Of a DNA stretch of 64,000 nt, positions 60,001 to 63,000 are shown one piece after another. Position 1 is the first letter of the stretch; each line of letters starts with the position of its first letter. This DNA comes from Firmicutes bacterium UBA5010 (GTDB taxonomy: Bacteria > Bacillota > Clostridia > Tissierellales > Sedimentibacteraceae). The position numbers were made by a program. The stretch covers positions 13,165-77,164 of the forward strand of contig DGYI01000067.1 of NCBI GenBank assembly GCA_002396645.1, in the 5' to 3' direction.

Positions 60001-63000
60001 AGGCAGGCAAGGGATTTGCCGTAGTAGCAGAAGAGGTAAGAAATCTTGCAAGCAAGAGTCAGGAAGCAGCTAAAACCACTGCCGAATTGATAGAAAAAAC
60101 AACATCAGCTATATCAAATGGCAAGGACATAGTAGATTTGACAGCCAGAACTTTTGAAGAAATTAAAGAAAGCTCTTATACTCTTGAAAAGCTTATAGAT
60201 GAAATATCCTATGCAACTAATGACCAGGCAGAGTCTATAAAGCAAATAAATGCAGGAGTAGAACAAATTTCTTCAGTAATTCAATCTAACACTGCAACTG
60301 CCGAAACAAGCACAAAAACAAGTGAAGAGCTGTTAGAGCAAGCAATGGCATTAAGCAATTTAATAGAAAAATTCAAGAAAGCTTAGTATTACATAATAAA
60401 AGCCGGAAGATTCTAAATTCTTCCGGCATTATTTTTAATTAAAAATTATTGTGAAATAATAATTAAAAATTATTGTTTTCAATTATTAAAATTATTGTTG
60501 TATTATGTGTATTGCTTTGCTATAATAAATATTGCACACAATGTGTTTAGAGATTTTAATTTAATACTGAGGACAGGTACTCAAGTGGTTGAAGAGGCAT
60601 GCTTGGAAAGCTTGTAGGACGCTAACGTGTCGCGAAGGTTCAAATCCTTTCCTGTCCGCCAATTTTTAAAGAGTTGATTGTTTTTAACAAATCAACTCTT
60701 TTGTTTTATATTTTGATTTAAAAATTTTTATTTTTTTATATTTCCGTAAATTCTGTTAGGAGTTTTGGTAAGTATCAGGCTGACTAAAGCAATTGCTACT
60801 GCCATTGCTCCTATATTAAGCAAAGTTTTAACTCCTGTAAGAAGTGCCTCATATATATCATTCTGAACAAATTCAAGCATGGTCTGATACAGTCCAAGCC
60901 CCGGAACTATAGGCACAACTGCAGGAAAAACAAATATAGTGGCAGGCATCTTTACCTTTCTGGCGCAAAGCTCTCCAAGTAAGGATATAACCAGGGTTCC
61001 CAGAAAAAATCCTGCCATCTGCTGGTTGTATTTTAAGCATATCGAATAAATAAAATATCCTATAGAAGCTATAAGTGACGAAAAAATCAAGCTTTTTTTA
61101 GGTGCATTCATGACTAATGCAAAAAACCATGTTGCCATAAAGCTGCATATCAAATCTATTATCATAATATATTTTACCTCTTTCTTATTTTCTAATTTAT
61201 CATGGCTAATGCATATGCGACTGAAATAACAACACCGGCTCCGGCGGCTAAAGAAGTTGCAACAAGCATTGCTTCTGCCGCTCTGACTACTCCAGATATG
61301 AGATCTCCTCTCATTGTATCTCTTATAGCATTTGTCATAGCAAGTCCGGGTAAAAGAGGCATGATTCCTCCAACTATAATTTTATTGTAATCACCTATTT
61401 TTAAAAAGTATGTAGCAGAAATTGCCACAACAGAAATAATCGCCGCACCGAAAAATCCTATAAAAAATTGATGTGAATCAAGATTTTTCAGCTTTGAAGA
61501 AACATATTGAACAAGCATACCGCTCAGAAGTGCCAGAATAAATTCTATAACTCCTCCTCTAAACAGCATGGTAAAAAAAGCAGCAGCTATTCCTTCATAA
61601 AAAATATAAAATGGTCTTTTCTTTAAACCGACATTATTTTTTAAATCTCTGAGTCTGATTATAGCCTCATCTAATGTTATTTGCTTGCTGGTGATAAGTC
61701 TTGAAATCGAATTAACATCATTAAGTTTTGACAGGTCTATGGATCTGTTTTTAATTCTGCTTATAACTGTTCTGTTTCCTTTATTTGGCGGTGATATAGT
61801 AATATAAATACCTGTCGGAGTAGCTATGGAATCTACCTCCGATATACCGAAGGATCTGCATATAAATTCACAAGTTCCTTCAATTCTATAGGCCTCCGCA
61901 CCGCTTTCAAGCATTATTTGCGATATTATTCTTATAACTTTTAAAAGTTTTTCAACACTAACATTATCATCCAAATTAATCACCAACTTTATAATATTTA
62001 AATATCCATAGTCTCAATTACATTGAGCCATTTGAAATATCCTACGGATATTATAGTATAGTCTCAACTACGTTGAGCCATTTGAAATATCCTACGGATA
62101 TTATAGTCTCAATTATGCTGAGACATTTAATAATAATTCCCAGCTGTATTATTATAGCACAATCAAATCTTTAAACAAAAGATATATTTGGTTAAGATTA
62201 AAATAAATTTATGTAAATTATGTGACCGTTAGATAGTTGATATGTATAGATAATTTAAACCAATTTTAAATTTAATTGTTTAAACTATGCTTTTTAGGGA
62301 ATATTATAATTGATTTATTGATTTAAAACATATATAATTTATATTTGGATAGAATATATCAAATCAAAACATAGGAGGAACTATAATGGCAGTTACTAAA
62401 GATATGCTAATTCGTGAGGTTCTACAAGAAAATCCTGATTCTGCAGCAATTTTAATGTCCTTTGGTATGGGATGCATAGGTTGTCCAAGTGCACAAATGG
62501 AAACATTGGAAGAGGCAGCAGCAGTTCACGGAATTAATGTAGATAACGTAGTTGAGGCGTTAAATAAATAATTTAAAATAAAAAAACATACAGGTAAGTT
62601 CTTCCTGTATGTTTTAATTTTATTTGTCATTTGTTATTATAATAATTCATCCAATTTAGCTTTATCAAATCCTACTATAGCTTCTTCATCTACATAAATA
62701 ACCGGAACTCCCATAAAGCCTTTTGCTATCAATTCTTTTCTTGCATCTACATCTGTTGATACATTTTTCTCAGTGAATGAAACATTTTTTTCTGTTAAAT
62801 AATCTTTTACTGAATGACAATATGGACACGTGTTGCTTGTATAAACTGTAATATTTTTCATTTGTACCTCCATAGTTTATATTTTATTATTATTTCTAAA
62901 TTTCAGCTTATTATTACTACTATATTTATACCCTTGTAATAAAAATATTATCATGTTTTTTATAATTTTACCATTATTATTTTAAAAATATGTAACTTTA

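What the first reader, a model, noticed from the sequence alone, without database searches (positions are those of the whole stretch)
62009..62134. 45-50 bp tandem repeat with covarying hairpins upstream of the ThrE-family exporter operon
Upstream of the yjjP/yjjB-like pair there are 2.7 tandem units. Each holds a first hairpin whose stem sequence differs between units but always stays complementary (CTCAAT/ATTGAG, CTCAAC/GTTGAG, GTCTCA/TGAGAC). Each also holds an invariant second palindrome ATATCC-tac-GGATAT, with a TATAAT-like hexamer on the coding strand in each unit. Compensatory changes imply selection for structure, whether an RNA or a cruciform or operator array. The function is unknown, and I cannot match it to a riboswitch or a known repeat class.
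Basis: seen in the sequence. Interest (0 to 1): 0.6.

Follow-up and report, generated by a model that had tools for sequence, protein, structure and literature searches.

The report
Interspersed hairpin repeat in thrE leader
The tandem hairpin repeat upstream of the exporter genes is real. It is one cluster of a small, strain-variable repeat family that also sits in front of unrelated genes in this Sedimentibacter-like genome, comparable to the BOX or REP repeats of other bacteria, and it is not a regulator dedicated to the exporter.

Summary
Tandem Repeats Finder reports 62008-62128, period 50 then 45, 2.5 copies. There are three copies of hairpin 1 with complementary but differing stems, and two identical copies of the palindrome AATATCC-TAC-GGATATT.

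It is not specific to this locus. The same two-hairpin element, in the same orientation, lies upstream of a flotillin gene (50144-50214) and of an unknown gene (6845-6896). In those copies hairpin 1 has compensatory or wholesale stem replacement, and hairpin 2 is extended by a nested hairpin.

- A near-identical strain (L006) has one unit fewer.
- Relatives with 90%, 86% and 78% ThrE identity have no element at all, though the 90% and 86% relatives keep the extended -10 promoter (TGnTATAAT) upstream.
- The array is therefore a recent ~140-nt insertion and expansion inside the transcribed 5' leader.
- Short-read contigs break inside it.
- Nothing matches in Rfam, phages, plasmids or GTDB species representatives.
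- Wobble pairs and folding energies favour the gene-sense strand.

Best reading: a new, lineage-restricted family of modular interspersed hairpin repeats (like BOX, REP/BIME or SPRITE). It is co-transcribed with the operon and at most modulates mRNA stability or translation.

Riboswitch, operator array and CRISPR readings are disfavoured. Interest is low to moderate.

The parts
61996..62131 (-). Whole repeat array in the thrE leader. On the gene strand it reads AAATG-HP1(U3)-HP2-AAATG-HP1(U2)-CTATA-HP2-AAATG-HP1(U1)-half HP2.
   Evidence: Tandem Repeats Finder, the repeat finder, nhmmer, alignment against empty sites
62008..62031 (-). Hairpin 1 of unit 1, nearest the gene. Sense RNA: AUGGCUCAAU-GUA-AUUGAG(A)CUAU.
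   Evidence: Sequence; folds; covariance model hit at 48.7 bits
62036..62052 (-). Hairpin 2 of unit 1, a perfect 7-3-7 palindrome AATATCC-GTA-GGATATT. The sense-strand TATAAT (62050-62055) overlaps its 5' arm.
   Evidence: (I7)
62058..62081 (-). Hairpin 1 of unit 2. Its loop-closing pair is C-G where unit 1 has U-A (compensatory).
62086..62102 (-). Hairpin 2 of unit 2, identical to that of unit 1.
62106..62124 (-). Hairpin 1 of distal unit 3. Sense RNA: GUCUCAG-CAUAA-UUGAGAC, with a G.U pair on the sense strand only. The loop differs by one base in the metagenome strain L003.
61996..62007 (-). Remnant of the 3' arm of hairpin 2 (GGATATTTAAAT) at the gene-proximal end of the array.
   Evidence: Sequence compared with the unit consensus
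62151..62159 (-). Extended -10 promoter TGCTATAAT of the thrE operon, upstream of the array. Relatives that lack the repeat keep it as TGTTATAAT or TGCAATAAT.
   Evidence: Alignment A3; sequences
61972..61984 (-). Shine-Dalgarno-like GGTGA (61980-61984) and the likely TTG start (61972-61974), which aligns with the ATG of the 86% relative. Public gene calls use GTG at 61983.
   Evidence: gene calls of 263 aa
61192..61986 (-). ThrE/YjjP-like gene downstream of the array.
   Evidence: Pfam PF06738, E = 1e-65
60728..61165 (-). ThrE_2/YjjB-like gene, second gene of the operon.
   Evidence: Pfam PF12821, E = 3e-35
50144..50214 (-). Second locus of the same family, between a 205-aa gene and the flotillin gene. 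Hairpin 2 is extended by a nested hairpin (CCTCAAT-CTTG-ATTGAGG). Hairpin 1 has the stem CUCGAU/GUCGAG.
   Evidence: E = 2e-9; 48 bits
6845..6896 (-). Third, diverged copy upstream of ORF 5857-6801. Hairpin 2 plus the linker is conserved at 22 of 26 positions, with a U.G wobble on the sense strand. Hairpin 1 is replaced by a different stem (AAUCGGA/UCCGAUU).
   Evidence: D1; 0 of 300 shuffles reach this match

Best explanation
The array is a cluster of a small, modular, hairpin-forming interspersed repeat that is specific to this Sedimentibacter-like lineage. It is the same kind of thing as pneumococcal BOX/SPRITE elements or enterobacterial REP/BIME clusters.

**The element.** One unit is about 50-75 nt. 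On the gene strand it reads (T)ATAATATCC-[loop or nested hairpin]-GGATATT-(A)TCAAATG-[hairpin 1]-CTAT.

**What happened at this locus (shown by comparison).**
- The element landed in the transcribed leader of the thrE/yjjP-yjjB operon, between the conserved extended -10 promoter and the ribosome-binding site.
- The 86% relative suggests a landing point about 20 nt downstream of the -10; intergenic divergence leaves the exact boundary uncertain.
- It then gained or lost whole units, presumably by slippage or unequal recombination.

**Inferred, not shown.**
- It is co-transcribed as a roughly 165-nt 5' UTR carrying five local hairpins.
- Any effect on the operon is a side effect on mRNA stability, processing or translation, not ligand- or regulator-specific control.
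- The stems stay complementary because the hairpin, on the gene-sense strand as RNA or as single-stranded DNA, is what the family needs in order to persist or spread. Whole hairpin modules are also exchanged between copies.
For: **1. Dispersed.** There are three loci in 64 kb, all in the same orientation and each in the intergenic region directly upstream of a gene, 12-50 nt from its ribosome-binding site.
- thrE leader, flotillin leader 50144-50214, and 6845-6896.
- A solo hairpin of the hairpin 1 type lies before a nitroreductase gene 10 kb outside the window, but it is not statistically significant on its own (model E = 0.8).

**2. Recent and mobile or unstable.**
- The thrE site is empty in relatives with 90%, 86% and 78% ThrE identity (L009, L010, L013), and the 90% and 86% relatives keep the glutaredoxin/DUF1858 synteny.
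- The flotillin site is empty in an 87% relative, where only 29 nt separate the two genes.
- Strains L006, L007 and L008 have one unit fewer.

**3. The promoter lies upstream.** TGnTATAAT is conserved in the 90% and 86% relatives that have no repeat.

**4. Structure is kept across copies.**
- 94% of cells pair, with 2 double-change pairs; 9 of 500 shuffles reach the covariation score.
- In strain L017 hairpin 2 of the flotillin copy becomes a perfect 16-bp stem, where the window has an internal loop.
- Every copy gives the same two-hairpin fold.

**5. Strand.**
- The stem wobble pairs are G.U on the gene-sense strand.
- For five of the nine copies the sense hairpin 1 is 3.4-4.5 kcal/mol more stable than the antisense one.

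**6. Multi-copy behaviour.** Short-read contigs end inside the array (L001, L002, L027).

**7. A second mosaic hairpin family** in the same window shares the AAATG-hairpin-C(C/T)ATAG layout and a hairpin module. Its terminator-like module is found at 7 sites in relatives.

**8. No known family matches:** Rfam, plasmids and phages, GTDB representative genomes.
Against: - Only about 74 kb of this genome could be read. The copy number per genome is extrapolated from 3-4 loci.
- No transposase or other mobilising enzyme was found, and no clear target-site duplication or terminal inverted repeat.
- All three copies are upstream of genes and in sense orientation. Selfish repeats are usually enriched downstream of genes, so this hints at function or insertion preference. 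But 55 of the 63 ORFs are on that strand anyway.
- The family was not found in about 80 kb from related genomes, in JGI metagenomes or in viral contigs. Its spread is therefore undocumented outside one species.
- There is no transcription data.
Confidence: 0.72

Rival explanations
1. The family is a non-autonomous single-strand-DNA transposon. It would be either an IS200/IS605-derived palindrome-associated element or a REP-like sequence moved by a Y1 (HUH) transposase. The two hairpins would be the enzyme's recognition structures, and the strand bias would reflect insertion into one replication strand. This concerns how the family spreads and is compatible with the best explanation.
For: - The hairpins are strand-asymmetric, with a bulged A and wobble pairs on one strand only.
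- All copies share one orientation, which coincides with the dominant (probably leading-strand) gene orientation.
- Filled and empty sites exist between close relatives.
- One hairpin is nested inside another.
- There are no obvious terminal inverted repeats.
Against: - No Y1_Tnp or other transposase Pfam hit was found in the 40 window ORFs scanned directly or in the gene tables of the matching contigs (tables).
- The GT[AG]G head that defines REPs is absent 5' of the stems (compare the table in PMC2817692).
- The stems are AT-rich and short.
- No conserved target tetranucleotide could be defined from three sites.
Confidence: 0.15
2. Each unit is a mobile promoter. The TATAAT in the 5' arm of hairpin 2 would be an outward-facing -10 box that drives the downstream gene, and the tandem units would multiply promoter strength.
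For: - TATAAT lies on the coding strand in two units and in the flotillin copy.
- All copies sit upstream of genes in sense orientation.
- The promoter scan lists TTGAGA-17-TAGGAT within the array.
Against: - The hexamer is CATAAT in strain L017 and GATAAT in the third copy.
- No -35 or TG extension lies at the right distance.
- Promoter-like hits in the region are only modestly above the shuffles (13 against 7.1 +/- 2.9).
- A good extended -10 promoter already lies upstream and is the one conserved in the 90% and 86% relatives.
Confidence: 0.07
3. Operator array. The 7-3-7 palindrome AATATCC-N3-GGATATT would bind a dimeric transcription factor that represses a small regulon (exporter, flotillin and others) by overlapping the -10-like box.
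For: - The palindrome is perfect and invariant in both thrE units.
- A near-copy occurs at 6875-6891.
Against: - In the flotillin copy the half-sites are separated by 24 nt (window) or 20 nt (L017) of nested hairpin, which is incompatible with fixed-spacing dimer binding.
- The sites lie downstream of the conserved promoter.
- The element is absent from close relatives, so there is no conserved regulon.
- The conserved, covarying hairpin 1 and the sense-strand wobble pairs are left unexplained.
Confidence: 0.04
4. A dedicated cis-regulatory leader RNA of the exporter operon, such as a riboswitch, attenuator or thermosensor, that senses threonine/serine or stress.
For: - It sits in the 5' UTR.
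- The region folds better than shuffles (z = -3.6).
- There are compensatory changes.
Against: - No Rfam hit.
- It is missing from orthologous leaders at 78-90% protein identity.
- Unit number varies between strains.
- The same element precedes unrelated genes.
- There is no terminator or anti-terminator, no U-tract, and no pairing to the ribosome-binding site.
Confidence: 0.02
5. A degenerate or orphan CRISPR array or tracr-like remnant, suggested by the weak Rfam CRISPR-DR49 match.
For: cmscan gives 22.1 bits, E = 0.41, to RF01362 on the + strand.
Against: - The score is far below the gathering threshold of 41 bits.
- The units abut one another with no spacers.
- No cas genes are present among the window ORFs scanned or in the contig gene tables.
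- Single dispersed copies occur elsewhere.
Confidence: 0.01

Closest known systems
BOX elements of Streptococcus pneumoniae (boxA-boxB(n)-boxC) and the related RUP and SPRITE repeats (Croucher et al. 2011, PMC3049150)
   Same: - Small (<200 nt) interspersed intergenic repeats in a Firmicute.
- Modular, with an internal ~45-50 nt unit present in a variable number of tandem copies between strains.
- Predicted to fold into stem-loops when transcribed, and co-transcribed with neighbouring genes.
- Restricted to one species and its closest relatives.
- Elements are inserted into one another.
- The second family seen here (module Z) resembles SPRITE in being terminator-like.
   Different: - No sequence similarity was shown.
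- No distinct terminal boxA/boxC-like modules were found.
- The units here are two short hairpins rather than one long composite fold.
- All copies seen lie upstream of genes, whereas pneumococcal repeats are enriched downstream of genes.
- The host is an uncultured Sedimentibacter-like member of the Tissierellia.
REP/BIME and REPIN-RAYT systems of Proteobacteria (Nunvar et al. 2010, PMC2817692; Bertels & Rainey 2011, PMC3116915)
   Same: - Short extragenic palindromes maintained by compensatory changes.
- Arranged in clusters with conserved linkers.
- Strand-specific hairpins.
- Known effects on mRNA stability when transcribed.
   Different: - REPs have a GT[AG]G head and GC-rich stems.
- REPs occur as inverted pairs (REPINs) or alternating orientations in BIMEs, lie mostly 3' of genes, and are tied to a RAYT gene.
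- Here the stems are AT-rich, the repeats are direct, the head is AAATG, and no RAYT was seen in the DNA available.
Putative mobile promoters and Correia-type elements that land upstream of genes (own knowledge; Correia effects are summarised in PMC3049150)
   Same: Near-identical short sequences upstream of unrelated genes in one genome, carrying a -10-like hexamer and hairpins.
   Different: There is no -35 or TG extension and the hexamer is not conserved. The native promoter lies upstream of the insertion. No terminal inverted repeats or TA duplication like those of Correia elements are present.

Membership tests
BOX-like modular interspersed repeat | An internal unit present in a variable number of tandem copies between strains | tested here: met
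   The window and L003 have 3 copies of hairpin 1 and 2 of hairpin 2. L006, L007 and L008 have 2 and 1.
BOX-like modular interspersed repeat | Many dispersed copies in intergenic DNA of one genome | tested here: inconclusive
   There are 3 loci in 64 kb plus a possible solo hairpin in a further 10 kb, and contigs break at the repeat.
BOX-like modular interspersed repeat | Distinct terminal modules (boxA/boxC) or sequence homology to pneumococcal BOX | tested here: not met
   No conserved flanking modules are shared by the three loci. Homology to BOX HMMs was not tested.
REP / REPIN-RAYT | A GT[AG]G head immediately 5' of a GC-rich imperfect palindrome | tested here: not met
   The stems are AT-rich and the 5' flank is AAATG. 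GTAG occurs only in loops. Compare the REP table in PMC2817692.
REP / REPIN-RAYT | Inverted pairs (REPIN) or alternating orientation (BIME) | tested here: not met
   All units and loci are in direct orientation on the minus strand.
REP / REPIN-RAYT | A cognate Y1 transposase (RAYT) gene in the genome | not testable with these tools
   None was found among the window ORFs scanned or in the contig gene tables (tables). The rest of the genome is unavailable.
MITE | Terminal inverted repeats and a target-site duplication | tested here: inconclusive
   No terminal inverted repeats were found beyond the internal hairpins. ATTAT/TTAAAT is possibly duplicated at the thrE site, but the empty-site relatives are too diverged to decide.
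Riboswitch or other curated cis-regulatory RNA (Rfam 15) | A match at or near a family's gathering score | tested here: not met
   The only hit at gathering score in the window is a tRNA. The best hit in the thrE region is CRISPR-DR49 at 22 bits against 41, and the weak hits at the other two loci are equally far below their thresholds.
Riboswitch or leader regulator of thrE | Conserved in orthologous leaders of related species | tested here: not met
   Absent in L009 (90%), L010/L011 (86%), L012 (77%) and L013-L015 (78%).
CRISPR array | Repeats separated by unique spacers, with adjacent cas genes | tested here: not met
   The units abut one another. No cas domains occur among the window ORFs scanned or in the contig gene tables.
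Intrinsic terminator | A GC-rich stem followed by a U-tract | tested here: not met
   The scan found 0 terminator-like sites in 61800-62700. No T-run follows either hairpin on either strand.
Palindromic operator | Fixed half-site spacing in all functional copies | tested here: not met
   The spacer is 3 nt at thrE and in the third copy, but 24 nt (window) or 20 nt (L017) in the flotillin copy.

The most novel reading that the evidence does not exclude
The family is not junk but a leader-targeting, sense-oriented mobile RNA module.

- It would insert a few nucleotides upstream of ribosome-binding sites.
- It would place unrelated genes (exporter, flotillin, nitroreductase, unknown) under one post-transcriptional controller that recognises the two hairpins, either an RNA-binding protein or an RNase.
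- Unit number would tune the response.

That would be a transposable post-transcriptional regulon in an uncultured Clostridia lineage.
Probability: 0.1. Interest if true: 0.55.

Novelty: new member of a known kind. Interest (0 to 1): 0.25.

Why it matters
The practical result is a caution. What looks like a covarying structured regulator of an amino-acid exporter is a lineage-specific interspersed repeat, and it should not be annotated as a riboswitch or an operator.

It does document two small repeat families that have no match in Rfam 15, in the plasmid and phage collections, or (for the family of the finding) in GTDB representative genomes. They occur in a poorly studied Sedimentibacter-like group.
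- Family A is the two-hairpin unit described here.
- Family B is a three-hairpin mosaic that includes a terminator-like module.

These families break short-read assemblies, differ between strains (so they could serve as typing markers), and add 70-140 nt of structured RNA to 5' leaders and intra-operon spacers. If they alter expression, they are a source of rapid regulatory variation of the kind described for BOX, ERIC and Correia elements.

Tried and rejected
- **GTDB representative genomes.** A scan with CCATTTGAAATATCCNNNGGATAT gave only a chance hit inside a Bacteroidales coding sequence.
- **Metagenome and viral scans.** TATTN{1,2}CAAATGGCTCN9GAGACTAT gave 0 hits in both.
- **blastn** of the array against plasmids and phages found nothing.
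- **MAFFT** misplaced the nested insertion of the flotillin copy. I aligned by hand for nhmmer and used equal-length hairpin 1 segments for the pair counts.
- **Covariance model of hairpin 1**. It recovers only the four close copies. The diverged third copy (E = 2.3) and the solo hairpin (E = 0.8) are not significant by that model. The third copy was validated instead through the 26-mer of hairpin 2 plus linker.
- **Generic CTC...GAG hairpin scan.** Enrichment is explained by the known copies.
- **Strain variants of the third locus.** A look-up by protein found no record.
- **Right-edge look-up.** It returned only a 2-kb contig that ends in the repeat.
- **Readings considered and dropped:**
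  - integron attC: the R''/R' cores are too close together
  - dif/Xer site
  - invertible promoter
  - leader peptide: the AUG in AAAUGG has no proper Shine-Dalgarno sequence
  - type IIS restriction-site pairs (GTCTC/GAGAC)
- **38992-39021.** The 14-bit model hit there is an ordinary terminator.
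Full report

Yes. Tandem Repeats Finder reports a 50-nt period array at 62008-62107 (2.0 copies, 96% matches, score 186), extended to 62128 (2.5 copies). The repeat finder puts three copies in register, spaced 50 and 45 nt apart.

Hairpin 1 occurs three times:
- CTCAAT-TAC-ATTGAG at 62013-62027
- CTCAAC-TAC-GTTGAG at 62063-62077
- GTCTCA-N7-TGAGAC at 62106-62124

The palindrome AATATCC-TAC-GGATATT occurs twice, at 62036-62052 and 62086-62102.

The motifs exceed chance:
- The 20-mer linker has 2 matches against 0.01 expected.
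- The hairpin 1 pattern has 4 against 0.65.
- For the 15-mer palindrome, 0 of 100 shuffles reach the observed count.

Units 1 and 2 differ at exactly two positions, and these are the two sides of one base pair. By my own arithmetic the chance of this is about 0.005-0.008.

**2. Context**

The array lies between divergent genes.
- On the minus strand is a ThrE (PF06738) plus ThrE_2 (PF12821) pair, at 61192-61986 and 60728-61165.
- On the plus strand is a DUF1858 gene at 62386-62571.

ThrE homologues place the organism near Sedimentibacter (Tissierellia). The best named hit is Sedimentibacter sp. zth1 at 63%, and the nearest assembly is MAG GCA_023426205.1 at 99%.

**3. Comparison of the same locus in relatives**

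Strain-level relatives:
- L003 is identical except for one loop base.
- L006, L007 and L008 have exactly one unit fewer. Their remaining proximal hairpin is GGCTCAAC-ATG-GTTGAGAC.

More distant relatives have no trace of the element:
- The 90% (L009) and 86% (L010/L011) relatives keep the glutaredoxin/DUF1858/ThrE synteny.
- The 77-78% relatives (L012-L015) have a different neighbourhood.

The alignment shows a gap of about 140 nt in these relatives. The gap lies between a conserved extended -10 promoter and the Shine-Dalgarno/start region.
- The promoter is TGCTATAAT in the window (62151-62159), TGTTATAAT in L009 and TGCAATAAT in L010.
- The likely start is TTG at 61972-61974, which aligns with the ATG of L010.

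The array is therefore a recent insertion and expansion inside the transcribed leader. Transcription itself is inferred, not shown.

**4. The element is dispersed**

A loose search for hairpin 1 hit 50147. The sequence there is a full unit on the same strand:
- TATAATATCC-GTAT-[CCTCAAT-CTTG-ATTGAGG]-CT-GGATATT-ATCAAATG-GCTCGAT-GTA-GTCGAG-ACTAT
- It ends 12 nt before the GGAGG ribosome-binding site of a flotillin gene (PF01145).
- It scores E = 2e-9 by nhmmer and 48 bits by the covariance model.

Here hairpin 1 carries a compensatory A-U to G-C change, and hairpin 2 is lengthened by a nested hairpin.

In strain L017 (flotillin 99% identical), hairpin 2 of this copy is a perfect 16-bp stem. Its hairpin 1 differs again while still pairing. 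An 87% relative (L018) has only 29 nt between the two genes, so that site is empty.

A third, diverged copy lies at 6845-6896.
- It keeps 22 of 26 positions of hairpin 2 plus linker. No shuffle out of 300 reaches this.
- Its hairpin 1 is replaced by a quite different stem, AAUCGGA/UCCGAUU.

A solo hairpin of the hairpin 1 type (GTCTCAAA-CTAA-TTTGAGAC) abuts the ribosome-binding site of a nitroreductase gene 10 kb to the left of the window. It is not statistically significant on its own.

Short-read contigs stop inside the array (L001, L002, L027), as expected for repeated DNA.

**5. A second family**

The window also holds a mosaic of three hairpin modules at 2496-2569, 5222-5314 and 48611-48659.
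- X: TTTATAACATAGGAAAG-N4-CTTTCCTATGTTATAAA
- Y: AAGAATCG-N3-CGATTCTT
- Z: AGCGAAAC-TTG-TTTCGCT followed by a T-run

The modules occur in cyclic order and show compensatory changes between copies. This family shares two things with family A: the AAATG-hairpin-C(C/T)ATAG layout, and a Y-type stem that resembles the replacement hairpin of the third copy.

A Logan contig breaks inside module X. The exact Z 26-mer occurs at 7 sites in contigs of related organisms. One of these is MAG JAEAME01, one of whose matching contigs has the same length (46,471 nt) as the contig carrying the 75% ThrE homologue P0011. Family A was not found in those contigs.

**6. Structure and strand**

All copies fold into the same two local hairpins on the gene-sense strand, with z-scores from -1.95 to -7.6.

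On seven hairpin 1 sequences:
- 94% of cells pair.
- Two pairs change on both sides (A-U/G-C and C-G/U-A).
- Three pairs vary through G.U.
- Sliding the partners drops pairing to 24-44%.
- The shuffle control is only moderately strong (9 to 14 of 500).

The stem wobble pairs are G.U on the sense strand, which would be A.C mismatches on the other strand. They occur at the base of hairpin 1, in unit 3, in both flotillin variants, and in hairpin 2 of the third copy.

For five of the nine copies, sense hairpin 1 is 3.4-4.5 kcal/mol more stable than the antisense hairpin. This points to the sense strand as the relevant one, either as RNA or as single-stranded DNA. With about five independent events it is suggestive only.

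**7. What it is not**

- **Known RNA family.** No Rfam family comes near threshold. The CRISPR-DR49 hit (22 bits against 41) is noise. The units have no spacers, and no cas domain appeared in the ORFs scanned.
- **Terminator.** No terminator-like site is present.
- **Operator.** The nested insertion between the palindrome's half-sites argues against this.
- **Dedicated thrE riboswitch or attenuator.** This is excluded by the absence from orthologous leaders and the presence before unrelated genes.
- **Mobile promoter.** This reading is weak. The hexamer is CATAAT or GATAAT in other copies, there is no -35, and the conserved promoter is upstream.
- **Mobilising enzyme.** No transposase domain was found in the 40 window ORFs scanned or in the gene tables of the matching contigs (tables). 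Most of the genome could not be read.
- **Other collections.** Plasmids, phages, GTDB representatives, JGI metagenomes and viral contigs hold nothing similar.

**8. Best explanation and comparison with known systems**

The finding is a cluster of a new, lineage-restricted family of modular interspersed hairpin repeats.

The closest analogues are pneumococcal BOX elements (PMC3049150). These are modular, have an internal unit of about 45 nt whose tandem number varies between strains, fold when transcribed, are restricted to one species and its closest relatives, and insert into one another. SPRITE is the analogue for the terminator-like module Z. REP/BIME clusters are also close.

It fails the defining REP features: the GT[AG]G head, GC-rich stems and inverted pairs (PMC2817692). 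It shows no terminal boxA/boxC-like modules. I therefore file it as working like these repeats, not as a member of either family.

Shown here:
- the repeat and its hairpins
- its dispersal to at least three loci
- empty sites and copy-number variation in relatives
- its position downstream of the conserved promoter

Inferred:
- co-transcription
- an effect, if any, on mRNA stability or translation
- the cause of stem maintenance: requirement for propagation or RNA stability, module exchange, or palindrome self-correction

**9. Verdict**

The interpretation as a structured element is right in form, but the element is an ordinary kind of genomic repeat, not an exporter-specific regulator.

- Novelty: new member of a known kind.
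- Interest: 0.25.
- The residual interesting possibility (about 10%) is that its consistent placement just upstream of ribosome-binding sites, in sense orientation, reflects a mobile post-transcriptional control module.

Noticed in passing
window 2496-2569, 5222-5314, 48611-48659; L020-L026: A second interspersed mosaic repeat with three hairpin modules: X, Y, and a terminator-like Z (AGCGAAAC-TTG-TTTCGCT followed by a T-run). The modules are in cyclic order with compensatory changes between copies. The exact Z 26-mer occurs at 7 sites in contigs of related organisms (MAG JAEAME01, sample ERZ778028). This resembles pneumococcal SPRITE.
   Followed up: partly
window ~10700-33530, minus strand: An unusually long run of about 20 GNAT acetyltransferase genes. 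It is interspersed with SAM methyltransferases, an AadA_C nucleotidyltransferase, a beta-lactamase-GNAT fusion, an ASCH protein and an RNHCP protein, and all are co-oriented.
   Followed up: no
window 60571-60661 (+); L006 4388-5427: tRNA-Ser(GGA) lies between yjjB and the chemotaxis-receptor gene. The 99% strain L006 carries two extra genes there (a 181-aa gene and a GNAT), so this is a small strain-specific indel at that spacer. L001 and L002 also differ by 24 nt in this spacer.
   Followed up: no
L010 3001-4248, L011 1020-2267 (protein P0003): In the 86% relative the ThrE and ThrE_2 genes are fused into a single 415-aa ORF. Elsewhere they are a two-gene yjjP/yjjB pair.
   Followed up: no
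window 52063-52127: A 65-nt inverted repeat, with 24-nt arms 92% complementary, lies between convergent genes: an HTH-TPR regulator at 51109-52038 (+) and an aminotransferase at 52127-53323 (-). It is probably a bidirectional terminator.
   Followed up: no
L019 10318-10337 (about 10 kb left of the window): A solo perfect 8-bp hairpin, GTCTCAAA-CTAA-TTTGAGAC, lies 3 nt upstream of the GGAGGG ribosome-binding site of a nitroreductase gene. It resembles hairpin 1 of unit 3, but the covariance model gives only E = 0.8.
   Followed up: partly
L001/L002 position 1; L027 end; L019 position 1: Logan short-read contigs end exactly inside the thrE array or inside module X of the second family. These repeats fragment assemblies of this organism.
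   Followed up: yes
window 38444-39078: A 635-nt stretch has no ORF of 90 aa or more. It contains a terminator-like hairpin (~38975-39010) and a small ORF with a strong AGGAGG ribosome-binding site that starts near 38698 on the minus strand. No Rfam hit at gathering score.
   Followed up: no
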